Of a stretch of 32,000 bases of DNA, positions 10,301 through 24,877 are shown in pieces. Origin of the DNA: an uncultured Alphaproteobacteria bacterium (GTDB lineage: Bacteria > Pseudomonadota > Alphaproteobacteria > CAWJRW01); NCBI GenBank assembly GCA_963845385.1, contig CAWJRW010000006.1, positions 1,142,274-1,174,273 of the forward strand, read 5' to 3'. Position 1 is the first letter of the stretch; each line of letters opens with the position of its first letter. A program made the translations under genes and the position numbers. The notes under the pieces were generated by a model, which saw only the letters and a program-made list of their open reading frames with translations, did no database searches and was not told the origin of the DNA.

Positions 10301-10436
10301 TGATGACCGTCTCGTCCACCTTCGGATATTGGCGGATCTCGAGATTGGTCGCCGATTGCGCGCCGAGCAGCAGGATGAGCAGGCTCAAGACCGTCGACAG
10401 CACCGGGCGGCGAATGAACACCGCGGCGAAATTCAC
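7355..10436 (-). CDS. RND (HAE1-type) efflux transporter permease subunit; apparent 1-nt frameshift near the C-terminus
   Basis: GTG start at 10434-10436 overlaps the adaptor gene stop (GTGA). N-terminus is MNFAAVFIRRPVLSTVLSLLILLLG, and typical AcrB-family TM and porter segments run throughout ORF 7272..10436 up to ...FESFRDPLIVMMAVPL. The conserved final TM bundle (SIFGALVPLNLGLATLNIYTQVGLITLVGLITKHGILIVEFANE...) is in ORF 7355..7786, with the shift near 7783-7790. The span is 3082 nt (3n+1). Confidence 0.92.
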
Positions 10437-11806: not shown

Positions 11807-11906
11807 GAGCCGTGAGCTTTGGCCCCCTCCGACGACGGCGCCCTCCGAAAAAAGCCGGGGACCCTATCACAAGAAGCATTGACGTGACGTTGCAATTTCT
11901 CGTAGG

Positions 11907-11926
11907 TATACCGTCCGGATGGTATA
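11907..11926. promoter_or_regulatory. imperfect 20-bp palindrome in the TetR / efflux divergent intergenic region (candidate TetR operator)
   Basis: The sequence tataccgtccggatggtata differs from its reverse complement tataccatccggacggtata at one symmetric position. It lies 38 nt upstream of the TetR ATG (11964) and 100 nt upstream of the adaptor start (11806). Confidence 0.4.
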
Positions 11927-11963
11927 GTCAAGTTGGGCAGGACGCAATCGGGGCCTTAACAAG

Positions 11964-12623
11964 ATGAGCCTTTCACAGGCCGCCAAGCCCCCCAGGGAGC
12001 GCGCAAACTCGCGCAAGGCCATTCTCGACGCGGCGGTGGCGCTCGTGGCCGAGATGGGCGCCGCCCATCTCACGCTCGAGGCGGTCGCGCAGCGCGCGGG
12101 CATCAGCAAGGGCGGGCTTCTCTACAACTTTCCAACCAAGCTTGCCCTCCTCCAGGCAATGATCGAGAGCTATGTCGAAGGATTCCTCGCGCTTGCAACG
12201 TCGGAAAATGGAAAGGCGCAAGAAGGCGCGAGCCGTGCCTTGCGCGAGCTGCTTCAGTCGAGACTCGGGATTTCGAGCAAAGAGCCCCCTTCCAAGCGGC
12301 CGCACGGAATTCTCGCCGCCATGGTCGAGCATCCGCAACTTCTCGATCCCATTCGCGCGCTCCATCGCACGCTTTGGGCGCGCTTGAAGGAAACGCGGCG
12401 CGATCACGAGAATGTGTTGCTCGGCTGGCTCGCGATCGAAGGCCTCTTGTCGTTCGAGCTGTTCAACACGACCCCGCTCACCGCCGGCGACCGTGCGCGT
12501 CTCGTACGTTTGGCCACGCGGCTCATCGAAGGCGACCTCGTACTCACCGAGGGGGAGCGCGCTCAACCGTCCCAGCCGGCGCACAACATCCGCAAGAAGA
12601 GAGAAGACATCCCCGCGCGTTGA
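11964..12623 (+). CDS. TetR/AcrR-family transcriptional regulator
   Basis: N-terminal HTH ILDAAVALVAEMGAAHLTLEAVAQRAGISKGGLLYNFPTK. The gene is divergent from the RND operon, which is the typical local-repressor arrangement. Confidence 0.9.
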   Translation: MSLSQAAKPPRERANSRKAILDAAVALVAEMGAAHLTLEAVAQRAGISKGGLLYNFPTKLALLQAMIESYVEGFLALATSENGKAQEGASRALRELLQSRLGISSKEPPSKRPHGILAAMVEHPQLLDPIRALHRTLWARLKETRRDHENVLLGWLAIEGLLSFELFNTTPLTAGDRARLVRLATRLIEGDLVLTEGERAQPSQPAHNIRKKREDIPAR

Positions 12624-13795: not shown

Positions 13796-14566
13796 GAAAA
13801 AAGGCGGCCGCATCATCGCGCGCCGGCGGTTTCTCGCGCGCAGCGCGGCGCTCACGGGAACGCTGCTCGTCGGCGGCTGCGGCGACGAGATGTCGAGCAA
13901 CGATCGGGTGCAACGCACGCTCGGCCGCGCCGAGGGACTCAACCGAAGGGTTCAGCGCTTTCTCGCGGGGCGCGGCGCGCTGGCGCGCGAATACACGATG
14001 GCCGATCTTTCGCCGGCCTTCAGGGCAAACGGCTCGACGCAGCCCGGCGATCCCGGCTACTTCATCCACGCGCTCAGCCAGTTTGCCAATTGGCGCCTCG
14101 AAGTGGGCGGCCTCGTGCGCAGGCCCATGCGTCTTTCGCTCGCGGAATTGCGCCTCCTGCCCGCGCGCACGCAAATCACGCGCCACGATTGCGTGGAGGG
14201 ATGGAGCTGCATCGGCAAATGGACCGGCGCGCGCTTGGGGGCGGTCCTCGATCTCGCGGAGCCCTTGCCCAACGCGCGATACGTGGTCTTCCACTGCGCC
14301 GACAGGCTGGGCGGAGCCAGTACTACGAGAGCATCGACTTTTTCGACGCCTATCACCCGCAGAGCATTCTCGCTTACGATATGAACGATCTGCCGCTCCC
14401 CATCGCCCACGGCGCGCCCCTGCGCGTCCGGCTCGAGCGCATGCTGGGCTACAAGATGGCGAAATACATCATGCGCATCGAGCTCGTCGAAAGCTTCGGA
14501 CATCTCGGTGACGGCAAAGGCGGCTATTGGGAAGACCGCGGCTACGAGTGGTATGCGGGGATCTGA
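13785..14566 (+). CDS. molybdopterin-dependent oxidoreductase (sulfite-oxidase / YedY-MsrP fold), Tat signal; apparent 1-nt frameshift
   Basis: Tat motif ARRRFLARSAALTG. RHDCVEGWSCIGKWTGARLGAVL and ARYVVFHCADRLGG lie in ORF 13785..14384. The reading then continues YYESIDFFDAYHPQSILAYDMNDLPLPIAHGAPLRVRLERMLGYKMAKYIMRIELV in ORF 14090..14566, with the shift near 14311-14322. The span is 782 nt (3n+2). Confidence 0.85.
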
Positions 14567-14589: not shown

Positions 14590-15882
14590 TTAGTTGCGGT
14601 GGGTCCTGAGAAACAAGGCCGGGATCGCGGAGCACAAAACCACCACTGCGAGCGCGATCATCGCCGGTGTGTAGCTATCCATGCGCTCCTGGAGCCAAGC
14701 GACGCCCGGCGCACCGCCCGAGCTCAGCGGCATGAACAGAGCCATGAGGCCGAAGGCGCGCCCAAACGAGCGTCCGAAGGTATAGGAAAAGGACGCCCCC
14801 ATCATGGGCAAGATGCCGCCCGCGGCAATGCCGAGAAACATCGCGGCGGCTGCTACGCCCGTGAACCCCGACGCGAGCCCAAGCGCGACGTAAGCTAGGG
14901 CGCTCAGGACCGAGGCCAAGCAGAACAAGAGCCGGTGTTCCACGCGGTCGGCGAAATGGCCCCAAACGAATTTCGCCGCAAGAAGCATCGACGCCATCAG
15001 GGAGAACAAGGTCCCGGCCTGCACCGGCGTGAAGCCGCGCTCGGCGGCGTAGGCGGCGAGATTTGCCTGGAAGCCGCCGAGACACGCGACGACGGGAATG
15101 ATGATCAGGCACATGGCCCAAAAGTTCCGCTCACGGAAGATCGCCCGCGCGGTGAACTCCTTTTCGGCGGGAGGCTCGGCTTGCGCCGGACTTTTACCCG
15201 CGGTCAAGTCACTGGCGGCAGGACCGTTTCTAATGACCGCCAAGACCAAAGGCAGGATCAAGACAAGAGAGCCGATCGCAAGCAGGTCGAGCGTGTGCCG
15301 CCAGCCGAATTCCCCGATCATCCACACGACAGTCGGCGGAGTGACGATGGCGCCGAGGGAGATGCCGGTCGAGGCAAGCCCAATTGCGAGCCCGCGGCGC
15401 TTTGGAAACCAGCGCGCCGCCAGCACTTGCGCCGAAAGATTTCCCGCAAAGCTGAAGCCCAAAGCCAAGACCGTGCTGTAAACCACGGTGACTTGCCACA
15501 CGGCCGTCACCATGGACAGCAAGGCCAATCCCGCCGAGAACGCCACCATGCCTCCGGCCACGAGCGCGCGCAGGGACATGGTGTCGATGGCCCGTCCGAC
15601 GAACGGTCCAAGGGCCGCGCCGACAAAAGCGGGAACCGTCATGGCAAGCATGATGTGACTGCGCGCGACGCCGAATTCGGTCACCCATTTCTCGGCGTAG
15701 AAGGTGAAGCAGCTGAACGGGACGGCGAATGTAACCGCCTGAAAGAGGAGGCTTACGGCAAGGACGTTCCAGCCCCAATACCAGGGCGTGCGCAATCTGG
15801 GCATTCGATCGAGCGCCGGGCGCAAAGCCGACGGCCAGCGCAGCACACGAATGCCGCCGACCCGCTTCTCTGCGGTCTGCAT
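14590..15882 (-). CDS. MFS transporter
   Basis: Intact 430-aa ORF with about 12 hydrophobic helices. It has the MFS loop motif (GRAIDTMSLRAL, WFPKRRGLAIG) and a central hydrophilic loop. Confidence 0.9.
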   Translation of the reverse strand: MQTAEKRVGGIRVLRWPSALRPALDRMPRLRTPWYWGWNVLAVSLLFQAVTFAVPFSCFTFYAEKWVTEFGVARSHIMLAMTVPAFVGAALGPFVGRAIDTMSLRALVAGGMVAFSAGLALLSMVTAVWQVTVVYSTVLALGFSFAGNLSAQVLAARWFPKRRGLAIGLASTGISLGAIVTPPTVVWMIGEFGWRHTLDLLAIGSLVLILPLVLAVIRNGPAASDLTAGKSPAQAEPPAEKEFTARAIFRERNFWAMCLIIIPVVACLGGFQANLAAYAAERGFTPVQAGTLFSLMASMLLAAKFVWGHFADRVEHRLLFCLASVLSALAYVALGLASGFTGVAAAAMFLGIAAGGILPMMGASFSYTFGRSFGRAFGLMALFMPLSSGGAPGVAWLQERMDSYTPAMIALAVVVLCSAIPALFLRTHRN

Positions 15883-16015
15883 TGGCTCGAGCGGACCTCC
15901 CTGTCGTTTTTTCCGATGCTAGTTTGGCTATCGCCAACGCGCAATACGGAATAGTCGAACCAGCGCCCGTTTGCCGTGCGCGAGCGATGCGCAAGTTCTA
16001 TGTTAGCGATAGAAT

Positions 16016-18517
16016 TTGGCGGAAAAGCCGCAGCGCGCTCGGGTGAGGAGAACAAAACCGGTGGCCCCATACAGCTCCGCGACCCCGGTGCGTACCAAGA
16101 GCACGCCGAACGAAATCCTGAGCTTCGTGCTCGTGCGTTTCGCCATTGTGGGCGGGGTGCTCGCGCTTGTGGGCTACATCCTGCGCGCGGATTCCTGGAC
16201 GCATCCCTCGCTGGGCAACATTCTCCTCGACATTTCCGACACGCTCTACAGGACGATCCGCATGTTCTTGCTGGGCGGCGACGTTGCGCGCGGCGAGGGT
16301 GACGGATCGTTGCGCTGGACCGTCTCCACAGGGCTCCTCCATGTGGCGCGATTTCTCGCGCCGGTGTCGTTCTACGGCATGCTCTTTCGGGTGCTCTTCG
16401 GACTGGTGCGGCCGCATCTTCAACGGCGCCGGCTTTCGCACTTGCGCAACCACACCATCGTTTGCGGCCTCGGCGAAACCGGACAGCAATTCGTGCTCAA
16501 CCTCATGCGCCGCGATCCGCAAGCCGCGCGCAGCACCGTCGCCATCGAAAGCCGCGACGTCGAGGCGGCGCGCGCCTTTGCGGCGCCGCTCGGCATCGAG
16601 CTCGTCGAGGCGAGCCCGCGCGAGGCGCAATCGCTCATCCGCGCCAATGTCAAGGACGCCGCAGGTCTCGTCATCGCGACCGACGACGACTCGGCCAATC
16701 TCGACATTGCGGCGCTCTTGCCGGGCCTGGTTGCGACACGCAGCGCCGAGGCTCCCCTCGAAGCGCATATGGAGGTGCGCAACGACACGCTCTTGAAGGA
16801 GCTCACCGACCGCGACGCGTTCTTGCGCCCGTCCGAGCGACTGGAGTTGCGCCCCTTCAACGTCGACGTGCTCGTCGCCCGCCGCTTCTTCGCCGAGCAT
16901 AATTTGATGGCTGAGGCCGAGCTGCGCGACCAGAAGCAGGTTCATTTCCTGTTCGTCGGCTTCGATTCCGTGGGGCTTCAAGTCATGTTGCAGCTCGCGC
17001 GCATCTCGCCCTATCGCAATTTCGCGCGGGCCCTTGTGACGCTCTTGGTCGCAGCGCCCGAGGATTGCCGCGAGGCCTTGAGCGCCACCTATCCCGAGCT
17101 CGCGGGGGGAAACGGCGAGGCGGATGCGGACAAGGTCGTGGACCTCAAGCTCGAGCGCTGGGCCGCCGAGCAGGACGGGCTGCCGCCCGCCTTGATGCGC
17201 GCGGTCGAAGCCGATGCCGAGATCACCGCCATCATCGTCTGCCTCGGCGAAGACGCGCTCAACGCGCGCACCGCGCTTCTCATCCGCTCGCTATCGCAAC
17301 GCGAGGCGCGCTGGCGGGCGCCCATCTACGTCCACCAGCGCGGCGTCGGCGGCCTTGGCCGCTTCGTGCAGGCGAGCACGGGCGCCAAGGACTTCGTCGA
17401 GATCATCGAGCCTTTCGGCATGCTCGACGAGATTTGCCGCGTGGAGGATCTCGGCGGGGAGAGCGACGCGGTGGCGAAAGTCTTGCACGAGGGCTATCTC
17501 GCGCTGCGCAGCGAAAGCGGATCGGGCGAGCCTTCGCCCAGCATGCGGCCATGGAACAGGCTCGACGAGATCTACCGCCGCGCCAACCGCCGCGCGGCCG
17601 ACCATATTCCCGTGAAGCTCGCAAGCGCAGGCTTTCACGTGACGGGCCGTCCCTTCGCGCGCCGGCGTGGAAGGCCTTTCGACCTCAGTCCCGATGAGCT
17701 GCGCGAGCTCGCGCGGCTCGAGCACGAATCCTGGATGAACGGCCAGAAGCTTGCGGGCTGGCGCCGCGGCGCGCTGCGCGACGAGCGGCGCCGCTATCAC
17801 GAGTTCCTTGTTCCCTTCGACGCGCTCTCCAAAGCCGTCCAGGACTACGACTACGATCAAGTGCGGGTCGTCTTGGAGAAGGTCGTGCGCGAAGCCGACG
17901 CCGACAGAGCAACGGTCTTTCGCGAACGCCGCATCGGGCTTTTCGCCGAGCCGCATTTGACCGAAGTGGAGACGGCCGCGGCTCTGCGCGATTTTTCCGA
18001 CCGCACGCTGCCGGCGTTGTTGTCGCGTTACGAGGGCTGCTGGCTCACCATCATGACGCGTCTTTCTCCCGGTGCCGAGCTTTCGCTGTGCGAGACGCTT
18101 GTTTCGACACTCGATGCGGCGGCCCGCAGGGCGTGGCGCTTGATCGTCGTGAGGGGCACTCCGGAAAGCATCGCCTTGCGGGGCGAGGCCGTGGCGCCGA
18201 CGGGTGCGAGCGAGCCCCGGCAAGACGCCATCCGCGCAGACGAGCTGGCTCGGCGTCTTGCCATCATCGCCCGCCCCGAGACCGAGTTTACCGTCGACCT
18301 CACCCCGCCCGCCTTGCGGCTCGAGGATTGGCTTCAAGACGCCTCGCTGCGGGCGCGGGGCGATGCGCGGGCGCGCGACTACCTCTTGCGCAAGTGCGAC
18401 GTGGTCGTCGAGATCCCGGGTAAGGCCGTGCAGAGCGGGGGCATAAGTGTTAATGCCGACGCCGGACGCAGCCCAAGGCCCGGCGCCGAAAGGCTTATTC
18501 GCCTTCCCTCGGGGTGA
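16016..18517 (+). CDS. 2TM channel-like / tandem TrkA_N (RCK-like) / RyR-domain protein with a C-terminal SLOG-like domain
   Basis: 833-codon ORF from TTG 16016. A better start is GTG 16061, preceded by AGGAGA 8 nt upstream. TM helices are ILSFVLVRFAIVGGVLALVGYIL and LLHVARFLAPVSFYGMLFRVLFGLV, flanking a pore-loop-like TLYRTIRMFLLGGD. Rossmann motif TIVCGLGETGQQF is followed by a second, degenerate one (VHFLFVGFDSVG). RyR-domain signatures are KVLHEGYLAL...RPWNRLDEIYRRANRRAADHIPVKL and LARLEHESWMNGQKLAGWRRG...YHEFLVPFDALSKAVQDYDYDQV. The C-terminal 180 or so residues resemble the N-terminal domain of the gene at 20096..21934. Confidence 0.85.
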   Translation: MAEKPQRARVRRTKPVAPYSSATPVRTKSTPNEILSFVLVRFAIVGGVLALVGYILRADSWTHPSLGNILLDISDTLYRTIRMFLLGGDVARGEGDGSLRWTVSTGLLHVARFLAPVSFYGMLFRVLFGLVRPHLQRRRLSHLRNHTIVCGLGETGQQFVLNLMRRDPQAARSTVAIESRDVEAARAFAAPLGIELVEASPREAQSLIRANVKDAAGLVIATDDDSANLDIAALLPGLVATRSAEAPLEAHMEVRNDTLLKELTDRDAFLRPSERLELRPFNVDVLVARRFFAEHNLMAEAELRDQKQVHFLFVGFDSVGLQVMLQLARISPYRNFARALVTLLVAAPEDCREALSATYPELAGGNGEADADKVVDLKLERWAAEQDGLPPALMRAVEADAEITAIIVCLGEDALNARTALLIRSLSQREARWRAPIYVHQRGVGGLGRFVQASTGAKDFVEIIEPFGMLDEICRVEDLGGESDAVAKVLHEGYLALRSESGSGEPSPSMRPWNRLDEIYRRANRRAADHIPVKLASAGFHVTGRPFARRRGRPFDLSPDELRELARLEHESWMNGQKLAGWRRGALRDERRRYHEFLVPFDALSKAVQDYDYDQVRVVLEKVVREADADRATVFRERRIGLFAEPHLTEVETAAALRDFSDRTLPALLSRYEGCWLTIMTRLSPGAELSLCETLVSTLDAAARRAWRLIVVRGTPESIALRGEAVAPTGASEPRQDAIRADELARRLAIIARPETEFTVDLTPPALRLEDWLQDASLRARGDARARDYLLRKCDVVVEIPGKAVQSGGISVNADAGRSPRPGAERLIRLPSG

Positions 18518-18644
18518 AGAGCCCGAGATTCCAATGCAGGATAATCCTGGCAGAGCATTGCGGAGCCGTGCCCGCTTACGCCATGATCGCGCCGCTCATG
18601 GTCGCTCTTAAGCGCCACAATGCGCCAGCCATGAGGGGGATACG

Positions 18645-19994
18645 ATGACCGAGCAGGGCCAAGCGTCGATCGCGTTCATCAGTTACGCCACCCAAGACCG
18701 CGACAAGGCGTTCGAGATTTGCCGCCAGCTCGAGACGCGCGGGCAAAAATGCTGGATCGCGCCGCGCGACGTGCGCGCGGGTCGCGAATACGCCGACGAG
18801 CTCGTGAGCGGCATCGAGCGCGCGCAGGCGCTCGTGCTTGTCCTCTCGAGCGCGGCGAACGATTCCATCTTCGTGCGCCGCGAGGTCGAGCGCGCGGTCA
18901 GCAAAAAGAAGCCGGTCTTTCCCATCCGCATCGAGAACGTGGCGCCCTCGCCTTCGCTTGAATTCTTCGTCTCTTCGACGCACTGGATCGACGCCTGGTC
19001 GGGCGGCTTGTCCGATCACATGGACCTGCTCGCCCGCGATCTTTCGGGCGGCACGTTCGTCATCGCCGAGCCTTCGCCGTTGAAGAAGCAAATTCGCCGC
19101 TGGCAGAACCTCTTGCGTGGTCCCATGCTGATCTATGCCGGCGTCGCCGCGGCGCTCGTCATCGGCGGCATCATCTTCCTCACCCGGGCGCCGAGCGAGG
19201 AGGCGCTCTACGACCGCCAATCCTGGCAGCAGGCCGCGCTCGCCGACACCGTCGACGCCTACAGCACTTATATCCGGCTCGTTCCCGAGGGGCGGCACGT
19301 GCGCGAGGCCAAGCGCCGCGTCGAAACGATGAAGGAAGCCGAAGCCGAGCGCGCCATCCGCACTCAGATCCAAGGGATGCTCGCGAGCTTGGGCTACGAC
19401 GCCGGGCCCGCCGATAACCCGATGAACGACAAGCTCGAAAGCGCGGTGCGGGAGTTTCAGGCGGACAACGCGCTCGGCGTGAACGGCAAAATGACGCCCG
19501 ATCTCGCTGCCGAGCTCAACAAGGTGCGCGGCGCGAAAGCGCCGGAAATCGCCGCGCGCGAACAAGCCTTGGTCAAGAAATCGCGCGTGGCCTATGAGAA
19601 CTTCTTGAGCCGCTTTGCCACCGGCCGCATGGCCGACGACATCCGCGCGCGGCTCGCAAGCTGTCGCACCGAGACCGGGCCCACGACGCGCCAGAAGACG
19701 AGCCAAGTCTCCGCGCAGGGACGCGGCAGCGCAGGCGCCGGCGGGAGCGCGTGTCAGATCGCCGAGAACAATGCGCGGGCCGAGATTCAGTCCGCTTGTC
19801 CGGGCGGCGTCCTGGGCCGGGTCGCGGTAAACTCTTCGCCGGACGCGGGCTCTGCGGCCCTTGGCATCATGGGCAGCATTCTCGGCGGCGCCACGAACCG
19901 CAACGTCAATGTGCAGGCGGCCTGCACGGCGACAGCGAGTGCCAACTGCACCCGCGTCGTAACCGAATCGGCGACCCGGGAAGTCTGCGACTGA
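18645..19994 (+). CDS. TIR-domain protein, single-pass membrane anchor, periplasmic PG_binding_1 domain and Cys-rich tail
   Basis: ATG 18645 is preceded by GAGGGGGA. TIR_2-type motifs: IAFISYATQDRDKAFEI, GQKCWIAPRDVRAGREY, ALVLVLSSAANDSIFVRREVERA (conserved Glu codon at 18882-18884), PVFPIRIE, THWIDAW. A positively charged KKQIRRWQNLLRG precedes the TM helix MLIYAGVAAALVIGGIIFL. PG-binding motif: IQGMLASLGYDAGPADNPMNDKLESAVREFQADNALGVNGKMTPDLAAEL. The last 110 residues contain six Cys. Confidence 0.9.
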   Translation: MTEQGQASIAFISYATQDRDKAFEICRQLETRGQKCWIAPRDVRAGREYADELVSGIERAQALVLVLSSAANDSIFVRREVERAVSKKKPVFPIRIENVAPSPSLEFFVSSTHWIDAWSGGLSDHMDLLARDLSGGTFVIAEPSPLKKQIRRWQNLLRGPMLIYAGVAAALVIGGIIFLTRAPSEEALYDRQSWQQAALADTVDAYSTYIRLVPEGRHVREAKRRVETMKEAEAERAIRTQIQGMLASLGYDAGPADNPMNDKLESAVREFQADNALGVNGKMTPDLAAELNKVRGAKAPEIAAREQALVKKSRVAYENFLSRFATGRMADDIRARLASCRTETGPTTRQKTSQVSAQGRGSAGAGGSACQIAENNARAEIQSACPGGVLGRVAVNSSPDAGSAALGIMGSILGGATNRNVNVQAACTATASANCTRVVTESATREVCD

Positions 19995-20095
19995 AAGCGC
20001 CCGAACAAAGCCGCGCGGCGGAGATTCACATCTCCGCAAGCTCGGAGCCGGGCTCCGCGGCCGAGCGGGCCGCAGCGGGGCGGCTATCCCCCGCA

Positions 20096-21934
20096 CTGCA
20101 TCCGCGCCTCACCTTACGCATCGGCGTCACGGGCCATCGCCTCGGCGGCGAGCGGCTTTCGCAAGACCATCTGCCGGCGATCGAGAAAGCGGTTGCACAC
20201 ATTCTCCTCGTCATCCGCGGCGCCCTCGATGAAGTGCTGATAAAGAACCACGAAATCTTCGCCGCCGCGCCGCCGCTCATCCGCTTCGTCTCGCCGCTCG
20301 CCGAGGGCGCCGATCAGTCGGCGGCCAAGGCCGCGCTCGCCGCAGGCGTCGAGCTCGAATGTCCGCTTCCTTTTGCACGCCGTGATTACGCGCGCGACTT
20401 CAAGAACTTCTTTCGTCGCGCCGCGAATTCTATCGTCTGGTGCGCGCCGCGTCGGCGGTGTTCCAGCTTCCGGGGCGCCGCCGCGACGAGGAGGAAGCCT
20501 ACGAGACGGTGGGCCTGATCACGCTGCGCCAGAGCGATCTCGTTGATCGCAGTCTGGGACGGCAACCTCAAACAGCCTCGGCGCGGCGGCACGGCGGAAA
20601 TGGTGATCAAGGCCTTCGAGAGCGGCATTCCCGTGCTCTGGCTGCACCCCGCGCATCCGGAGCCCCGGCTGCTCGAAAAGGAGGACGCAGCCTTCGGCAC
20701 GACGCTGTGGGAGCTCGTCGCCCAAGGCGGGCAAGACATCGACGATGCGGGCATTCAAACGCTCGTCCACGGTCTCGCCGCCCCGCCGGGCAGCTTCAAG
20801 AGCGAGCGGAATCCTATACAGAGGGAAGCGCGCGCGCGCCTTTGCGCCTTTCTCGGCGAGACGGAAAAATCCGCGCCGCGCCTATGGCTCGCCTATCCGC
20901 TGCTCATCCGCCTCCTCGGAAACAAGCGCGGCGCGCCGCAGCGTCAATCGGCAAGCTTGCGCGAGACCCTCTCCGCGCCGCCGGCCAAGATTCGCAATCT
21001 CGACGCCGCGCGCGCGCTGATCGATACGCGTTACAGCCGCCCCGATCGCCTGAGCGTCCATCTCGGCCAGGTCTATCGCTCGGGCTATGTCATGAATTAT
21101 CTGCTCGCCGCGCTCGCCGTTTTCTTAGCGCTCGCCGGCATCGTCTGGGACCACGACCTCAAGCCGATATGGACCGATCTCGAGCTCGCCGTCATCTCCT
21201 TCATCCTGGCCGTGACCCTGATCGGGAACCGTTTGCGCTGGCATGATCGCTGGCTCGATTATCGCCAGCTCGCCGAGCAGCTTCGCCATTTGCGCTTCCT
21301 GTGCTTTGCGGGCGCACGAACCGAAGACGCGCGCGTGCCCCATGTCAGCGAGGCGATCAAGCCCGGGTCGGCCTGGGCCAGTTGGTATTACCGCGCGAGC
21401 TTGCGCGAATTGCCCATGCTGCATGCGCGCGTCGACCACGCCTATGTCGGCATGCTGAGCGAAGCCGTGGTGAGCGAGATCGAGGAGCAGGCGCATTACC
21501 ACGCGCTCAACGCGCATCGGCTCAAGCATGTCCACGAGGCCCTGCACTATGCGGGAAATTTCTTCTTCGTGCTCACCGCCGTGACCTGTCTCGCGTTCGC
21601 CACGTTTGCGGCGGCGAACAGCGCCTGGCACTTTGCGGGCGCCACGCTCCTGAACTGGGTCATGGCGAGGGTAAGCTTGCTCGGCGGGCTTTTGCCCGCG
21701 ATCGGTGCCGCGCTTTACGGCATCCGCATCCAAGGCGACTTCAAGGCCGCAGCCGAACGCTCGGCCGTGGTCGCGGCGCGCCTGTCGTCCCTCATGCGCG
21801 ACCTCGGCGGAAAACATCCCACCTCATTCGCCAAGGCCGCGCGCATCGCCGACGAGGCCGCCAATATCATGACGGCCGAGCTCTCCGATTGGAGCATGAT
21901 CTTTCGCGAGAAGCCGCTGTCGCTGCCTGCGTGA
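20096..21934 (+). CDS. SLOG (LOG/YpsA-like) domain fused to two SLATT/DUF4231-like 2TM modules; two compensating frameshifts; start codon unresolved
   Basis: Frame A (ORF 19751..20518): LRIGVTGHRLGGERL...LIRFVSPLAEGADQSAAKAALAAGVELECPLPFARRDYARDFKNFF. Frame B (ORF 20440..21246), about 20425-20540: EFYRLVRAASAVFQLPGRRRDEEEAYETVGLITLRQSDL. Frame C (ORF 20543..21934): IAVWDGNLKQPRRGGTAEMVIKAFESGIPVLWL. Then come TM pairs YVMNYLLAALAVFLALAGIVW / LELAVISFILAVTLIG followed by RWHDRWLDYRQLAEQLRHLRF. A second unit follows: EQAHYHALNAHRLKHV, FFFVLTAVTCLAFATFAA / VSLLGGLLPAIGAALYGI. There is no ATG, GTG or TTG in any frame between 19995 and 20125. CTG 20096 is used here only as a placeholder start. Confidence 0.75.
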
Positions 21935-23338
21935 GGGAGCGGCGCTCACGGTGTCCAGTCCGCCCCGAGGCTCGGCCTCACGCGCAAGCCCAATTCTTGC
22001 CAAACGTCGAGCCAAGCCAAGACGGCGGGCGCCGCCCACCCCGCCATCGCATGGGCTTCCGCTAGCTCCTCGCATCTCTTCCGAATTCAGTCCCGAGCCT
22101 CCGAAGGAGATCCCCTTGCCGATATAGTTCGTCTTTCCGACAAGCGTGACAAACTCTTCGCCCACGATTTGCGGCAGACGCGAACCGCCCGATGCCGTGT
22201 TGTTGTCGTAGATGCAATTGTAGGAAAAGCTCGCAAGCGGCGTGGCGGCGCCCGAAGAATAGGATGGGCTTGCCAGCCCGCCCGAGGCGGCAACGCCTGC
22301 GCCCACATTTCGCGCGATGACATTGTTTTCAAAGCTCGGCTCGATGAAGCCTCCTGGAATGTAGCCGCCTGCCCCGTAGGACGAGCTGTAGCCGTCTTGC
22401 TGTCCCGGGAGTCCCGAACTGCCGAGCTGGCTCGCGCCCGCGCCGTAAGTGAGCCCGTCGTCCATGCTCTCATTAAGGCTCGACTGCGCCGCGAAGTCCG
22501 CAAATTCGTCGACCGGCTTCTCGGAATAGATGAGCTGGACGCCGGTGCCATTCTTGTAAACGAGATTTGACGAATACGTGCCCCCGCCATTGATATTGAC
22601 AATGCCTGTTCCCGCGTTCCGATGAATGAGGTTTTGGGCGGCATAGAGCTGGGCGCCGCCGCTCACGACGAGCGCGACCACATTGTCGTCGATGTCGTTG
22701 CCGGCGACGAAATGCTGTCCCGCACCAGTGTTGCGCAGGACGATGCCCACCTTCGACCTTGCGATGTAATTGCCATCGATAGACGACTTCGGGCCGCGAA
22801 TGACGACCGCGTCCGTATCGGGCGTGCCGACAACGGTGCTTCTGCTGAGCACGAAGTCCGACGCGATGACGTCGATGCAGGGCGCATTCTGGTCTGAGCT
22901 CGCGAGCACGACGAGGCCGCGGATCCTGACCGTGCCCTGCGTCACCTTCACGCGAATGCAGGGATTGGCCGCGTTCGTGGCGGAGAGCCGCACCGTTCCG
23001 GAGCGAACCGCGACGAGGGTCAGAGGTTTCCTGATGACCAGGTTGCCCTCGTATTTCCCCGCCTCGATGCGCACCACGCCCGAGGGCTTGGTCCTGTCGA
23101 TCGCATTCTGAATGCTGTCGCCCGGCTTGACCCTGGTTTCGCTTTCGCCGCCGGCATAGGGAGAGGGATAGAACGGAAAGTCGGGCGGCGCGGGTACCGC
23201 ATCCGAGCAGCACGCGGCAGCCGCCATCGAGCTCTTGACGATTAAGAGCGCGAGCAACAACAGCGGCAGGAAAGAGCGCCTTCTCGCATGCCGCATAAGA
23301 GCAAGCCGTTCGCGCATGACCTGTTCCCCCAACTTCAT
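21824..23338 (-). CDS. secreted right-handed parallel beta-helix repeat protein (C-terminal boundary doubtful)
   Basis: ATG 23338 is preceded by AGAGG 7 nt upstream. Signal peptide is RRRSFLPLLLLALLIVKSSMAAAA. Repeated beta-helix rungs are visible (GNLVIRKP, VRIRGLVVLASS, AVVIRGPKSSIDGNYI, VGIVLRNTGAGQHFVAGNDI, ALVVSGGAQLYAAQNLI, GTGIVNINGGG, GTGVQLIY), followed by a Gly/Ser-rich region. The last 80 or so codons (below about 22060) are Arg/Gly/Ala-rich and overlap the convergent gene by 111 nt. The true stop may therefore lie near 22060-22090. Confidence 0.7.
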   Translation of the reverse strand: MKLGEQVMRERLALMRHARRRSFLPLLLLALLIVKSSMAAAACCSDAVPAPPDFPFYPSPYAGGESETRVKPGDSIQNAIDRTKPSGVVRIEAGKYEGNLVIRKPLTLVAVRSGTVRLSATNAANPCIRVKVTQGTVRIRGLVVLASSDQNAPCIDVIASDFVLSRSTVVGTPDTDAVVIRGPKSSIDGNYIARSKVGIVLRNTGAGQHFVAGNDIDDNVVALVVSGGAQLYAAQNLIHRNAGTGIVNINGGGTYSSNLVYKNGTGVQLIYSEKPVDEFADFAAQSSLNESMDDGLTYGAGASQLGSSGLPGQQDGYSSSYGAGGYIPGGFIEPSFENNVIARNVGAGVAASGGLASPSYSSGAATPLASFSYNCIYDNNTASGGSRLPQIVGEEFVTLVGKTNYIGKGISFGGSGLNSEEMRGASGSPCDGGVGGARRLGLARRLARIGLAREAEPRGGLDTVSAAPSRRQRQRLLAKDHAPIGELGRHDIGGLVGDARGLGE

Positions 23339-23356: not shown

Positions 23357-24877
23357 CTAGCGCGCGTCATCCATGGGTTTCGCTCGCGGAGAAGCCGTCT
23401 CTGCCCCTTGCTTCGGACAAGTGGCGCTGGCTTTCGCACTGCTTTCATCGGACCAATTCACTTCCTTGAGCCTGCAGGCGATCTCCTGCTTGTTCGGATA
23501 TTCGGCCTCGCGCGCGGCCAGGAAATAGGTCGCGGCCTGGCCGAAATCGACGCGGACGCCGAGCCCGTCGCGATACATGATCCCGAGATTGTAGAGCGCG
23601 TAAGGATGCCGCTGGTTCGCAGCCTTTTCGAACCAGGTGCGCGCACGGGGATAGCTCACCGGCACGCCATAGCCGTAGTGGTACATGTAGCCGAGCGTGA
23701 ATTGGCTCGGCGCAAATCCGTTCACGGCCGCGGTCCGGATGAGCTTGACGGCTTGAGGCGGCATGAGCTCGCCCGTGACCGGGCCGCCGAGGGACGCCTG
23801 ATAGGCGAGCGTCGCCTTGCGCGTCGTGGGCCCGCACGCATTGTCGATTTCACCGCGATAGAAGCCAACCTCCCGCAACGCTCTCTGGAACGACGCGCAC
23901 TCGATCTTGCCGATGCGGGCGAGCGCGGCTTCCTTGAGAGAGTCGACGCGCGACTCGTCGCTGTAGGGCTTGGGATAGACCTCGAAGGGCGGCTCCCACA
24001 GCTCGGCCATCCAATCGGCCGCGTCCTTGATCTCGCCGCAGTAGTGCTCGTAGCTCGCCCCGGACGACGCCGGAGGACTTCCGCTCTGCGGCGACGTACA
24101 GGACTTGCCATTCACGAGCTGCTCGACCTTTTTTTTCGCGGTCGCGGCATATTTGTAGCCGAGCTCCTCGGCGATCATGAAATAGGCAAGCCCGTCGATG
24201 GGATCTTCTTCAAAAACGCTGGCCGACGGGGATCGCGCCACCGCGTCGTTCGGGTACCGGCAGAGAACACTGTCGGCGACGGCCGGCACTTCGTTCGTCG
24301 CCGGGTTCCAATTCAACATGCGCGGGCAAGCGAAATAGATCTCGCCCAACCGGTAAAAGCCCTCCGCACCCCGGCTCGCCAGAATGTAGATGATGCGCTG
24401 CTCGGCATCGCGCCTCTGCGTCGAGGTCATTTGGTTGTAGATCCGCGGCATGTCGTTCTTGAAGCGATCGGAAAGGCGCGTGCTCAGTTCCTGGGTGAGG
24501 ACCGTCAGGGTGCCCTGGGATCGCTGTTTGTTGATGAGGGCGAGGTACGTCCACACATAGGCTTCGACCACATCCCGGGGTACATACTGCAGCGCCAGCT
24601 TCCTGCCGCTCGCGCTCTTCCCCGTCATCGCGGTCTTTGCCGGAAAATACAGATCAGCGAGCTGGAGCTGGGCGTCGATGTCGTCGTTGACCCAGGCCGC
24701 GTCGCGCCAGAGCGAGATGGCGCGCGCATAGTCGCCCTGCTCGAAGGCGCGCGCACCCTCGGCATATTCGGCGGCGGGGGCCGGAGTGGCCCGCGTCAGG
24801 CAGGCTAGGAGAGCGAGAAGGACGCCCGCGCGGCGCAAGACGCACAGGACGCCAGCCTTTGGATCGCTGTCCCCCAA
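23357..24877 (-). CDS. secreted Sel1-like repeat (TPR-family) protein with an internal PG_binding_1 domain
   Basis: Signal peptide LRRAGVLLALLACLTRATPAPAAE. The start is TTG 24877 or the in-frame TTG at 24838. Sel1-type repeats: EGARAFEQGDYARAISLWRDAA and GYMYHYGYGVPVSYPRARTWFEKAANQRHPYALYNLGIMYRDGLGVRVDFGQAATYF. PG-binding motif: FQRALREVGFYRGEIDNACGPTTRKATLAYQASLGGPVTGEL. Confidence 0.85.
   Translation of the reverse strand: MGDSDPKAGVLCVLRRAGVLLALLACLTRATPAPAAEYAEGARAFEQGDYARAISLWRDAAWVNDDIDAQLQLADLYFPAKTAMTGKSASGRKLALQYVPRDVVEAYVWTYLALINKQRSQGTLTVLTQELSTRLSDRFKNDMPRIYNQMTSTQRRDAEQRIIYILASRGAEGFYRLGEIYFACPRMLNWNPATNEVPAVADSVLCRYPNDAVARSPSASVFEEDPIDGLAYFMIAEELGYKYAATAKKKVEQLVNGKSCTSPQSGSPPASSGASYEHYCGEIKDAADWMAELWEPPFEVYPKPYSDESRVDSLKEAALARIGKIECASFQRALREVGFYRGEIDNACGPTTRKATLAYQASLGGPVTGELMPPQAVKLIRTAAVNGFAPSQFTLGYMYHYGYGVPVSYPRARTWFEKAANQRHPYALYNLGIMYRDGLGVRVDFGQAATYFLAAREAEYPNKQEIACRLKEVNWSDESSAKASATCPKQGAETASPRAKPMDDAR

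What the first reader, a model, noticed from the sequence alone, without database searches (positions are those of the whole stretch)
18645..19994. TIR domain built like a transmembrane receptor: cytoplasmic TIR, one TM helix, periplasmic peptidoglycan-binding and Cys-rich region
**Seen.**
- The TIR domain (about 18663-19019) is followed by a basic stretch (KKQIRRWQNLLRG) and one hydrophobic helix (19122-19181).
- About 270 residues follow. They contain two W/AY-x-x-Y/F-hydrophobic motifs (DTVDAYSTYIRLVPEGRHVREA and RVAYENFLSRFATGRMADDIRA), a PG_binding_1 motif (about 19350-19523), and six Cys in the tail.

**Inference.**
- The positive-inside rule places the TIR in the cytoplasm. The PG-binding and disulfide-capable part would then be periplasmic.
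- Thoeris ThsB-type TIR proteins are generally described as soluble. An envelope-anchored TIR that could couple cell-wall or periplasmic events to NAD-derived signalling therefore seems unusual.
Basis: partly seen in the sequence, partly recalled or inferred. Interest (0 to 1): 0.75.

Follow-up and report, generated by a model that had tools for sequence, protein, structure and literature searches.

The report
Membrane-anchored TIR receptor with periplasmic sensor
This gene encodes a bacterial protein laid out like a Toll-like receptor turned around (TIR enzyme domain inside the cell, one membrane helix, a cell-wall-binding sensor module outside), and it sits next to two membrane proteins that look built to respond to a TIR-made nucleotide signal, so it may report events at the cell envelope to an NAD-based alarm pathway.

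Summary
ORF 18645..19994 (+) encodes a 449-aa protein with these parts:
- TIR_2 domain (E 2.4e-21), with the catalytic-position Glu (E80) invariant in 120 relatives.
- One TM helix (residues 160-180).
- Two TPR-like hairpins, PG_binding_1 (E 2.5e-10) and a tail with six conserved Cys.

N-in topology is supported family-wide: flanking K+R averages 4.4 on the TIR side against 1.4 on the far side, and is higher on the TIR side in 110 of 117 relatives.

What is rare and what is not:
- This PG-binding version is rare (about 7 sequences).
- TIR-TM-variable ectodomain is a large, multi-phylum family (at least 416 loci in species-representative genomes). I found no paper describing it.
- The same ectodomain also sits on receptor Ser/Thr kinases, so it is a portable extracytoplasmic module.

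Context adds two linked membrane genes:
- Downstream, a SLOG-SLATT protein.
- Upstream, a 2TM channel-like RCK-RyR-SLOG protein.

The trio stays together across gene-order changes and across phyla.

Best reading: a Thoeris-like NAD-signalling module whose TIR is a membrane receptor. The closest known systems are type VII Thoeris (TIR + SLATT) and the predicted "4TM SLOG" class. All biochemistry is inferred. I rate it a new variant of a known kind, with moderately high interest.

The parts
18645..19994 (+). Gene for the 449-aa TIR-TM-ectodomain protein (the finding)
   Evidence: ORF. Shine-Dalgarno GAGGGGG upstream. Orthologues at 51-87% identity.
18669..19046 (+). Cytoplasmic TIR domain (residues 9-134); catalytic-position Glu E80 at nt 18882-18884
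   Evidence: Pfam TIR_2 E 2.4e-21. AF2 pLDDT about 95. Foldseek matches TIR domains. E80 aligns with the 'KFE' Glu of TIR-STING 6wt6 and is invariant in 120 of 120 relatives.
19077..19121 (+). Basic juxtamembrane stretch PLKKQIRRWQNLLRG (residues 145-159)
   Evidence: 5 K/R and no D/E.
19122..19184 (+). Single transmembrane helix (residues 160-180), N-in orientation
   Evidence: Kyte-Doolittle maximum 2.48. AF2 helix at residues 164-179. An equivalent helix is present in nearly all 120 relatives.
19197..19310 (+). Periplasmic TPR-like hairpin motif 1 (W..A..DTVDAYSTYIRLVPEGRHVREA)
   Evidence: Conserved in orthologues and in kinases carrying the module. AF2 helices at 185-200 and 203-212. The motif recurs as a repeat in many proteins. 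Homologues give weak YfiO/BamD hits.
19359..19511 (+). PG_binding_1 domain (residues 239-289)
   Evidence: Pfam E 2.5e-10, 40.8 bits against a cut-off of 23. Modelled as a helical bundle.
19539..19658 (+). Periplasmic hairpin motif 2 (RVAYENFLSRFATGRMADDIRARLAS)
   Evidence: Y317, F320, L321, R334, R336 and L337 are invariant. AF2 helices at 299-325 and 328-338.
19662..19988 (+). Cys-rich alpha/beta tail domain (residues 340-448; six conserved Cys)
   Evidence: Cys positions. Conserved in all orthologues and aligned in the kinases P0254 and P0286 and in the TIR protein P0259. AF2 models beta-hairpins at 340-361 and 427-448, with pLDDT mostly 75-91.
16061..18517 (+). Upstream linked gene: 2TM channel-like + RCK (TrkA_N) + RyR repeat + C-terminal SLOG-like domain. 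An alternative TTG start lies at 16016.
   Evidence: Pfam TrkA_N E 5e-11 and RyR E 3.8e-9. Two TM helices. PDB profile hits to RyR repeats (E 1.7e-24) and to GsuK and MthK channels. hhalign of the C-terminus against the partner SLOG gives probability 92.5%, E 4.9e-7. The gene co-occurs with the TIR gene in L001-L007, L020, L033, L053, L071 and L081.
17909..18475 (+). SLOG-like domain at the C-terminus of the RCK-RyR protein
   Evidence: hhalign A5 against A3: query residues 611-798 align to partner residues 2-165, probability 92.5%.
20096..21934 (+). Downstream linked gene: SLOG-SLATT (DUF4231) 4TM protein. In this assembly it is interrupted by two indels.
   Evidence: tblastn against the intact 611-aa orthologue. 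Pfam DUF4231 E 1.4e-7. AF2 of orthologue P0126 gives pLDDT 91 and pTM 0.91. By Foldseek the N-domain matches YpsA, DprA, ShosA and LOG, i.e. the SLOG superfamily. It is the only neighbour that recurs across phyla.
20406..20542 (+). Out-of-frame stretch in the SLOG-SLATT gene: +2 nt at about 20406-20407 and +1 nt at about 20542, with a stop at 20516-20518
   Evidence: Nucleotide alignment to L001 and L005. The deposited genome calls only the 463-aa tail (P0127). A second frame break in the MsrP-like gene near 14320 suggests assembly indels.

Best explanation
The gene encodes a single-pass, N-in inner-membrane protein.
- **Cytoplasmic side:** a catalytically competent TIR domain, a family known to cleave or cyclise NAD+.
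- **Periplasmic side:** a portable sensor module made of TPR-like hairpins, PG_binding_1 and a disulfide-stabilised alpha/beta domain.

Together with its two flanking genes it forms a membrane-resident, Thoeris-like nucleotide-signalling module.

Proposed sequence of events (all inferred):
1. The ectodomain perceives a cell-wall or periplasmic cue.
2. This changes the lateral self-association of the receptor, and the cytoplasmic TIR domains assemble into an active oligomer.
3. The TIR converts NAD+ into an ADPR-derived messenger, of the cADPR type.
4. The messenger binds the SLOG domains of the two neighbouring membrane proteins: the SLOG-SLATT four-TM pore former and the 2TM RCK-RyR-SLOG channel-like protein.
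5. These alter membrane permeability or ion flux, giving growth arrest, abortive infection or a stress response.

Shown here: domain content, fold, topology signals, conservation of the catalytic-position Glu, mobility of the ectodomain between kinase and TIR heads, and the conserved gene linkage.

Inferred, not shown: enzymatic activity, the identity of the messenger, what the ectodomain senses, and the biological role.
For: **Architecture and topology.**

**Catalytic competence.** E80 sits at the canonical TIR Glu position and is invariant in 120 of 120 relatives, along with about 19 other invariant positions.

**Ectodomain as a sensor module.**
- The same hairpin, PG_binding_1, hairpin, six-Cys module follows the TM helix of the Pkinase proteins P0254 and P0286.
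- Sister TIR-TM proteins carry Peripla_BP_6/ANF_receptor, TPR, WD40, DUF4189, SH3_3 or FGE-sulfatase domains instead.

**Linkage to the partners.**
- The trio is syntenic in orthologues at 73-87% identity.
- It is kept together in a different gene order at 51% identity (L006).
- A SLOG-SLATT homologue lies within 10 kb in about 14 of 80 species-representative loci, from at least six phyla. It is the only neighbour that recurs across phyla.
- All three genes are present in Paraglaciecola (L007) and in Planctomycetota (L033), Dehalococcoidaceae (L071) and Syntrophomonadaceae (L081) genomes.
- Sampling from the partner's side, 5 of 7 distant homologues have an adjacent TIR_2 gene. I checked the first three of those TIR genes for a TM helix and all have one.

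**Partner domain content.**
- The partner has a SLOG-fold N-domain plus DUF4231/SLATT.
- The third gene ends in a homologous SLOG-like domain.

**Precedent.**
- TIR + SLATT is type VII Thoeris and signals by cADPR.
- TIR + ion channel is type X.
- A '4TM SLOG' effector class has been predicted (10.64898/2025.12.03.692087).
- SLATT has been predicted to be an ADPr-derivative-regulated pore (PMC9503650).
Against: - No biochemistry exists for any member of this TIR subfamily.
- About 80% of TIR-TM loci have no SLOG-SLATT gene within 10 kb, so the pairing is not obligatory.
- The window and most sampled loci are in housekeeping context, not defence islands. PADLOC recognises no system.
- The two '4TM SLOG' systems tested by others gave no phage defence in E. 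coli.
- The partner gene is frame-broken in this assembly.
- PG_binding_1 may only anchor the protein rather than sense anything.
- The TIR is only about 26% identical to catalogued Thoeris TIRs.
Confidence: 0.5

Rival explanations
1. The biochemistry is the same, but the role is physiological rather than immune. The trio would be a chromosomally stable envelope-status or ion-homeostasis signalling pathway: a receptor TIR, an NAD-derived second messenger, and SLOG-gated channels. This is analogous to receptor Ser/Thr kinases that monitor peptidoglycan.
For: - The context is housekeeping, and synteny is conserved among relatives at 73-87% identity.
- There are no defence or mobile genes nearby.
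- The ectodomain is shared with receptor kinases.
- One family ectodomain is a solute-binding domain (Peripla_BP_6).
- The family is essentially absent from viral contigs.
Against: - SLATT and TIR are so far documented almost only in conflict systems.
- Distribution is patchy, and ectodomains are swapped extensively, which is typical of immune receptors.
- One locus sits beside toxin-antitoxin and STAND genes (L092).
- Phages encode stand-alone relatives of the partner SLOG domain.
Confidence: 0.25
2. The ectodomain is only an anchor or localisation device that tethers the TIR to the sacculus. Activation would come from a cytoplasmic cue such as a phage protein, as in ordinary ThsB proteins.
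For: PG_binding_1 is mostly known as a wall-tethering domain, for example in cell-wall hydrolases (general knowledge). Soluble ThsB proteins are activated during phage infection.
Against: - The ectodomain is large (about 270 aa), multi-domain and conserved.
- It is exchanged for ligand-binding modules in sister proteins.
- It is shared with receptor kinases, where ectodomains are the sensors.
Confidence: 0.15
3. The TIR acts as a stand-alone NAD+-depleting effector. Its neighbours would be functionally unrelated, or regulators only.
For: - Most TIR-TM loci lack a SLOG-SLATT neighbour.
- Many bacterial TIRs are NAD+-depleting effectors.
- The best PADLOC and Foldseek similarities are to effector TIRs from SPARTA/pAgo and SAVED-TIR systems.
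Against: - The linkage is conserved across phyla and survives gene rearrangement.
- Two neighbours carry SLOG sensor domains.
- TIR + SLATT systems have been shown experimentally to signal through cADPR.
Confidence: 0.08
4. The TIR is a non-catalytic protein-interaction scaffold, as in animal TLR and MyD88.
For: Foldseek also matches the scaffolding TIRs MyD88, MAL and TLR1.
Against: The catalytic-position Glu is invariant and many polar positions are invariant. The partners have nucleotide-sensor domains.
Confidence: 0.02

Closest known systems
Type VII Thoeris (ThsB TIR + SLATT effector ThsH; canonical cADPR signal), Yirmiya et al. bioRxiv 10.64898/2025.12.03.692087
   Same: A TIR gene lies next to a SLATT/DUF4231 membrane protein. 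The expected logic is a TIR-made ADPR derivative that opens a membrane effector.
   Different: - Here the TIR is a different subfamily, with about 18-30% identity over short local alignments to type VII TIRs.
- It is membrane-anchored and has a 270-aa periplasmic module.
- The effector carries an extra N-terminal SLOG domain and four TM helices.
- A third gene (channel-like RCK-RyR-SLOG) is linked.
- The locus is not in a defence island.
Predicted 'SLOG and 4TM' Thoeris-like class (same preprint, Table S2), and type I/III Thoeris with SLOG-bearing effectors
   Same: The effector pairs a SLOG sensor with TM helices next to a TIR gene. In type I Thoeris, SLOG is the domain that binds 3'cADPR.
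   Different: - That class is unvalidated: two systems were tested and showed no defence in E. coli.
- Their TIRs are at most about 26% identical to this one.
- No membrane anchor on the TIR is reported.
Animal Toll-like / IL-1 receptors
   Same: The protein is single-pass, with a sensing ectodomain outside and a TIR domain in the cytoplasm. Activation is expected to work through receptor clustering.
   Different: - The order is reversed: the TIR is N-terminal (type II orientation).
- The ectodomain is TPR-like, PG_binding_1 and Cys-rich, not LRR or Ig.
- The TIR keeps the catalytic Glu and is probably an enzyme, not a scaffold.
- This is analogy, not orthology.
Bacterial receptor Ser/Thr kinases (PknB-type; here P0254 and P0286)
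   Same: The post-TM ectodomain is homologous, with the same hairpins, PG_binding_1 and six aligned Cys. The layout is the same: cytoplasmic enzyme, one TM, wall-facing sensor.
   Different: The cytoplasmic output is a TIR rather than a kinase.
Zorya (ZorAB), an envelope-anchored anti-phage system with a peptidoglycan-binding component (PMC11890865, seen in the listing; mechanism from general knowledge)
   Same: The concept is a defence sensor anchored to peptidoglycan that monitors the envelope.
   Different: The proteins are unrelated: Zorya uses a MotAB-like motor and involves no TIR or NAD signalling.

Membership tests
TIR domain superfamily (Pfam TIR_2, PF13676) | Profile match above the curated threshold | tested here: met
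   76.9 bits against a cut-off of 28, E 2.4e-21, residues 11-120.
TIR domain superfamily (Pfam TIR_2, PF13676) | Flavodoxin-like TIR fold | tested here: met
   AF2 pLDDT about 95. Foldseek target-normalised TM-scores of 0.7-0.87 to TIR structures.
Enzymatic (NADase/cyclase) TIRs | Conserved catalytic Glu after the third beta-strand | tested here: met
   E80 aligns with the Glu of TIR-STING 6wt6 and is invariant in 120 of 120 relatives.
Enzymatic (NADase/cyclase) TIRs | NAD+ consumption and a defined product | not testable with these tools
   Needs an enzyme assay and LC-MS.
Thoeris defence systems | TIR gene adjacent to an effector gene that carries a signal-binding domain | tested here: met
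   A SLOG-SLATT gene lies 101 nt downstream. The linkage is conserved across gene rearrangement and across phyla.
Thoeris defence systems | ThsB-type TIR (Pfam ThsB_TIR, PF08937) | tested here: inconclusive
   A partial match at residues 49-99, 23.0 bits against a cut-off of 21.2. PADLOC ThsB models give E 0.015-0.057. The NCBIfam ThcB4 hit is far below its threshold.
Thoeris defence systems | Enrichment in defence islands | tested here: not met
   The window neighbours are housekeeping genes, and so are L087-L089. Only L092 lies beside toxin-antitoxin and STAND genes. The sample is small and this is not a statistical test.
Thoeris defence systems | Phage-triggered signal production and protection from phage | not testable with these tools
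   Experimental.
Type VII Thoeris | Effector with a SLATT domain | tested here: met
   DUF4231 scores 32.3 bits against a cut-off of 24.7 in the window copy and the orthologues. The NCBIfam SLATT_1 hit is sub-threshold.
Type VII Thoeris | TIR related to the type VII ThsB clusters | tested here: not met
   Matches to the catalogued type VII TIR sequences are only weak (E 8e-5 to 6e-4 against the family HMM; 18-30% identity).
PG_binding_1 (PF01471) | Profile match above the curated threshold | tested here: met
   40.8 bits against a cut-off of 23.
PG_binding_1 (PF01471) | Actual binding to peptidoglycan | not testable with these tools
   Needs a sacculus pull-down.
SLOG superfamily (partner N-domain) | SLOG/DprA/LOG-type Rossmannoid fold | tested here: met
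   The top Foldseek hits are YpsA 2nx2 (E 1.3e-3, target-normalised TM-score 0.68), DprA, ShosA, TM1055 and LOG, mostly with probability 1.0. No Pfam or PDB sequence-level hit was found.
Toll-like receptor architecture | LRR ectodomain, type I orientation, C-terminal TIR | tested here: not met
   The TIR is N-terminal and the ectodomain is TPR-like plus PG_binding_1. The resemblance is functional and topological only.

The most novel reading that the evidence does not exclude
Bacteria may possess a widespread, unstudied class of true 'TIR receptors'. In this reading, single-pass proteins use interchangeable extracytoplasmic sensors (peptidoglycan-binding, solute-binding, TPR, WD40 and others) to switch on a cytoplasmic TIR enzyme. 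Its NAD-derived messenger would then gate SLOG-domain membrane channels, one of which carries a ryanodine-receptor repeat. That would be outside-in TIR signalling in prokaryotes. It would also be a possible evolutionary counterpart of eukaryotic cADPR/ADPR gating of RyR channels and of TRPM2, whose N-terminus is SLOG-like.
Probability: 0.25. Interest if true: 0.9.

Novelty: new variant of a known kind. Interest (0 to 1): 0.66.

Why it matters
- **Location of sensing.** As far as I know, the bacterial TIR immune systems characterised so far (Thoeris, CBASS/Pycsar effectors, SPARTA, AVAST) are triggered from inside the cell. A TIR wired to a periplasmic sensor would mean NAD-derived signalling can be triggered from the envelope. 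Candidate cues are phage adsorption or wall breaching, enzymatic attack on peptidoglycan, or a periplasmic ligand.
- **Parallel with animal immunity.** It would give bacteria the same topological logic as animal TLR and IL-1R receptors.
- **A testable pathway.** The linked SLOG-SLATT and RCK-RyR-SLOG proteins offer a concrete route from receptor to messenger to membrane channels.
- **An unexplained domain.** They also give a first functional context for the bacterial RyR domain, whose role is unknown.
- **Scale.** The family is large and spans many phyla. It may have been missed because surveys that start from defence islands would not pick it up.

Tried and rejected
- **Source organism.** The exact protein is not on record for contig look-up and carries no name in the cluster table. 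The organism remains unidentified.
- **PDB sequence searches.** The TIR protein gave only weak TIR hits. The partner gave none. The channel N-terminus alone gave none.
- **PADLOC.** Hits were at TIR-domain level only; no known defence system was called.
- **NCBIfam.** No family passed its threshold.
- **Promoter and terminator scan of 15800-22200.** Counts were at chance level, so it says nothing about operon structure.
- **tRNA and Rfam scans of the window.** Nothing found, so there is no sign of an integration site.
- **Burroughs et al. 2015 (the SLOG/SLATT definition).** The paper is not held. What I say about it comes from later papers that cite it.
- **Motif search in the Thoeris catalogue.** The strings CWIAPRD and REVERAV do not occur in the preprint's Table S1, but the stored file is truncated, so this is weak evidence.
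- **Fold match for the Cys-rich tail.** Foldseek output was dominated by the TIR domain, so the tail's fold was not identified.
- **Unbiased neighbour clustering.** The largest clusters were antisense-ORF artefacts and lineage-specific synteny. Only SLOG-SLATT survived as a real cross-phylum neighbour.
- **Viral contigs.** Only distant, soluble TIR-only relatives and stand-alone SLOG relatives were found.
- **Rejected: the 506-aa antisense ORF 18576..20096 as a gene.** It is a high-GC artefact.
- **Rejected: a periplasmic TIR (reversed topology).** There is no signal peptide, the positive-inside bias is strong, and NAD+ is cytoplasmic.
Full report
**1. The observation**

The ORF at 18645..19994 (+) is real. 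It has an ATG start, encodes 449 aa, and is preceded by a GAGGGGG ribosome-binding site.

- **Profile hits.** Pfam gives TIR_2 over residues 11-120 (E 2.4e-21, 76.9 bits, cut-off 28). It gives PG_binding_1 over residues 239-289 (E 2.5e-10, 40.8 bits, cut-off 23).
- **Hydrophobicity.** One segment, residues 160-180, is strongly hydrophobic (Kyte-Doolittle 2.48). Upstream lies PLKKQIRRWQNLLRG with 5 K/R and no acidic residue. The downstream flank has 2 K/R and 3 D/E.
- **Cysteines.** The tail has six Cys, at residues 340, 370, 385, 427, 435 and 448.
- **Structure prediction.** An AlphaFold2 model built on 110 relatives has mean pLDDT 81.6. It shows these elements:
  - a TIR fold at residues 9-134, pLDDT about 95;
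  - a TM helix at 164-179;
  - a helical hairpin at 185-212;
  - a helical bundle covering the PG_binding_1 region;
  - a second hairpin at 299-338;
  - an alpha/beta domain at 340-448 with two long beta-hairpins.
- **Fold search.** Foldseek confirms the TIR fold against SARM1, AbTir, SPARTA, MyD88 and Hydra TRR-2, with target-normalised TM-scores up to 0.87.

**2. Topology**

- There is no signal peptide; the TIR begins at residue 9.
- The positive-inside signal is not peculiar to this protein. Among 117 relatives with a post-TIR helix, the 15-residue flanks hold on average 4.38 K/R on the TIR side and 1.42 on the far side. N exceeds C in 110 and is lower in 1.
- The TIR substrate, NAD+, is cytoplasmic (general knowledge).
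- The C-terminal half holds a wall-binding domain and six Cys that are conserved in all orthologues, which fits an oxidising compartment.

I regard N-in, C-out as well supported, although no dedicated topology predictor was available.

**3. How unusual is it?**

- **The exact architecture is rare.**
  - A word-indexed search of 5.8 billion protein clusters returned only six full-length TIR + PG_binding_1 clusters at 51-100% identity.
  - A search with the ectodomain alone returned nine hits.
- **The TIR module is not rare.**
  - It has hundreds of relatives at 50-73% identity.
  - Almost all of the top 120 have a hydrophobic helix at about residues 155-190.
  - The ectodomains vary. Of 110 scanned, 6 have PG_binding_1, 3 have TPR, 1 has FGE-sulfatase and 1 has SH3_3. 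The rest are unrecognised by Pfam.
- **Phylogenetic spread.**
  - A scan of species-representative genomes found at least 416 loci.
  - They span Acidobacteriota, Alpha-, Beta- and Gammaproteobacteria, Verrucomicrobiota, Planctomycetota, Chloroflexota, Gemmatimonadota and Firmicutes, plus two archaeal MAGs.
  - Of the 95 TIR ORFs examined, 72 have a TM directly after the TIR. Most of the others are cut by contig ends.

A TIR followed by one TM and a variable ectodomain is therefore a large family, of which this protein is a rare PG-binding variant.

**4. The ectodomain is a portable extracytoplasmic module**

An exhaustive HMMER scan of 1.84 billion representative proteins with residues 181-449 found 2,418 hits.

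- Many are proteins with multiple copies of the hairpin motif and of PG_binding_1.
- Several match the whole module, including the Cys-rich tail.
  - P0254 (701 aa) and P0286 (695 aa) are Pkinase, then one TM helix, then the same hairpin, PG_binding_1, hairpin, six-Cys module, with all six Cys aligned.
  - P0259 is another TIR-TM protein with the hairpins and the Cys tail but no PG domain.

In receptor Ser/Thr kinases the post-TM domain is the sensor (general knowledge). Finding the same module behind either a kinase or a TIR argues that it is a sensor or anchor module facing the wall. It also supports the receptor-like reading.

**5. Genomic context**

*5a. The downstream gene (20096..21934).*
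- It carries DUF4231, the founding SLATT family.
- Orthologous contigs encode an intact 581-613-aa protein.
- In the window the gene is broken by a +2-nt insertion near 20406-20407 and a +1-nt insertion near 20542. This puts about 45 codons out of frame and creates a stop at 20516-20518.
- The MsrP-like gene shows another frame break near 14320, so I suspect assembly indels rather than true decay.
- An AlphaFold2 model of the intact orthologue P0126 is excellent (pLDDT 91, pTM 0.91).
- By Foldseek its N-domain matches YpsA, DprA, ShosA, TM1055/LOG and the Moco carrier protein, which are members of the SLOG superfamily.
- No sequence-level PDB or Pfam hit exists for that domain.
- It is therefore a SLOG-SLATT fusion with four TM helices.

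*5b. The upstream gene (16061..18517).*
- It has two TM helices, a TrkA_N/RCK domain and a RyR domain.
- A profile built from its homologues hits ryanodine-receptor repeats (E 1.7e-24). It also hits the RCK-gated channels GsuK and MthK, and the GsuK match covers the membrane part.
- Its pore loop lacks the TVGYG filter of K+ channels.
- Its C-terminal ~190 residues are homologous to the partner's SLOG domain (hhalign probability 92.5%, E 4.9e-7).

Both flanking genes thus pair a SLOG-type nucleotide-sensor domain with a membrane-permeability module.

**6. Is the linkage functional?**

- The trio is syntenic in relatives at 73-87% identity.
- In the 51%-identical orthologue the order is SLATT gene, RCK-RyR gene, TIR gene. 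The three stay together through rearrangement.
- I built HMMs from the cluster's own orthologues and searched six-frame ORFs of the 80 species-representative loci.
  - A SLOG-SLATT homologue is present in 12 loci.
  - An RCK-RyR homologue is present in 6 loci.
  - All three genes occur in L007 (Paraglaciecola), L033 (Planctomycetota), L071 (Dehalococcoidaceae) and L081 (Syntrophomonadaceae).
- An unbiased all-against-all clustering of neighbouring ORFs found SLOG-SLATT to be the only real neighbour recurring across phyla. It added two loci, giving about 14 of 80.
- From the partner's side, the family is large (at least 728 full-length relatives).
  - Of 7 distant homologues sampled, 5 have an adjacent TIR_2 gene.
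  - I checked the first three of these TIR genes for a TM helix (L087, L088, L089) and all have one. Across the five loci the C-terminal parts include WD40, DUF4189 and TPR.
- In partner-linked loci the TIR ectodomains include Peripla_BP_6/ANF_receptor (E 4e-43), TPR and an MFS fusion.

The pairing is strong but not obligatory. About 80% of TIR-TM loci have no such gene within 10 kb.

**7. Mechanism**

- **Catalytic competence.** The TIR keeps Glu at the catalytic position. E80 aligns to the Glu of TIR-STING and is invariant in 120 of 120 relatives, together with about 19 other invariant positions. This favours an enzyme over a scaffold.
- **Precedent.** The literature supplies the logic.
  - TIR + SLATT is type VII Thoeris and signals through canonical cADPR.
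  - TIR + ion channel is type X.
  - SLOG is the cADPR-isomer sensor of ThsA.
  - A '4TM SLOG' effector class has been predicted but not validated (10.64898/2025.12.03.692087).
  - The Aravind group predicted SLATT to be an ADPr-derivative-regulated pore (PMC9503650). It also noted peptidoglycan-associating domains after TM segments in other conflict systems (PMC7159879).
- **Proposal.** The periplasmic module senses a wall or periplasmic cue. This promotes TIR self-association. The TIR makes an NAD-derived messenger. The two SLOG-bearing membrane proteins respond by changing permeability. Only the architecture and the linkage are shown; the rest is inference.

**8. Arguments against**

- The window is in housekeeping context: LeuA, SmpB, SLT, RND efflux, TetR, MsrPQ-like, MFS, VIT1 and NRPS-like genes.
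- PADLOC calls no defence system.
- The TIR is only about 26% identical to the catalogued Thoeris TIRs.
- The family is essentially absent from viral contigs.
  - Phages do carry soluble TIR-only relatives and stand-alone relatives of the partner SLOG domain.
  - The stand-alone SLOG relatives could be signal sponges or decoys, but this is a weak pointer.
- A non-immune role in envelope or ion homeostasis is a serious rival. So is a purely anchoring role for PG_binding_1.

**9. Comparison and novelty**

- The protein is a member of the TIR_2 and PG_binding_1 families.
- It works like a Thoeris ThsB paired with SLOG and SLATT effectors. It fails or leaves open several Thoeris membership features: TIR subfamily, defence-island context and phage dependence.
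- It resembles TLR and IL-1R receptors only in topological logic, with the domain order reversed.
- I found no paper describing a bacterial TIR with a periplasmic sensor domain. One survey states that TLR-like TM features seem absent from bacterial TIR systems (PMC11350192).
- I class it as a new variant of a known kind. Interest is 0.66. The receptor-like family is broad, unstudied and directly testable, but every functional step remains computational inference.

Noticed in passing
window 20096-21934 (indels at about 20406-20407 and about 20542; stop at 20516-20518): The SLOG-SLATT gene is frame-broken relative to two orthologues. The deposited genome calls only the 463-aa tail (P0127). Two indels that together restore the frame, within 136 nt, look like assembly errors.
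   Followed up: yes
window about 14315-14342: The MsrP-like (Oxidored_molyb) gene changes reading frame relative to its orthologue. This is a second sign of indel errors in this assembly.
   Followed up: partly
window 16061-18517: This gene combines a 2TM channel-like part, an RCK domain, a ryanodine-receptor repeat and a C-terminal SLOG-like domain. I have not seen this architecture described. The pore loop lacks a K+ selectivity filter. It gives a possible functional context for the bacterial RyR domain.
   Followed up: partly
proteins P0254, P0286, P0272: These Ser/Thr protein kinases have one TM helix. P0254 and P0286 carry the same hairpin, PG_binding_1, hairpin, six-Cys ectodomain as the TIR protein. 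P0272 carries the PG_binding_1 part. The sensor module is shared between two kinds of signalling head.
   Followed up: yes
L071:4264-6642; L055:9986-11869; L040 and L042 (TIR ORFs at about 9962-11719 and 9917-12409): Sister TIR proteins are fused to a periplasmic solute-binding domain plus a 3-keto-disaccharide hydrolase domain (L071), to an MFS transporter (L055), or to 12-14 TM segments (L040, L042).
   Followed up: partly
L077:9815-11358: A TIR ORF and a SLOG-like ORF overlap in different frames. This could be a TIR-SLOG fusion disrupted by a frameshift, or two overlapping genes.
   Followed up: no
L089:5141-8785 and L091:4237-7788: In L089 two tandem SLOG-SLATT paralogues precede a TIR-TM-DUF4189 gene. 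L091 has the same gene layout (a 585-aa gene without Pfam hits before the SLOG-SLATT gene), but I did not inspect that gene's sequence.
   Followed up: partly
L094-L107 and L109-L121 (IMG/VR contigs): Viral contigs encode soluble TIR-only proteins of about 180 aa related to this TIR family. They also encode stand-alone proteins of 150-180 aa related to the partner's SLOG domain, which could be decoys or sponges for a TIR-derived signal.
   Followed up: partly
window 18576-20096 (-): A 506-aa antisense ORF spans the whole TIR gene. It is a high-GC artefact. Similar antisense ORFs formed the largest spurious clusters in the neighbour analysis.
   Followed up: yes
window 21824-23338 (-) and 23357-24877 (-): A Beta_helix/NosD-like protein and a PG_binding_1 + Sel1 protein lie just downstream. 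They are conserved next to the trio only in close relatives, so they may be ordinary synteny.
   Followed up: partly
L090:3775-6996 and L092:1-1893: Some SLOG-SLATT homologues sit beside nSTAND1/AAA_16 STAND NTPase genes. In L090 this is instead of a TIR gene; in L092 it is in addition to one. This hints at alternative upstream sensors for the same effector.
   Followed up: no
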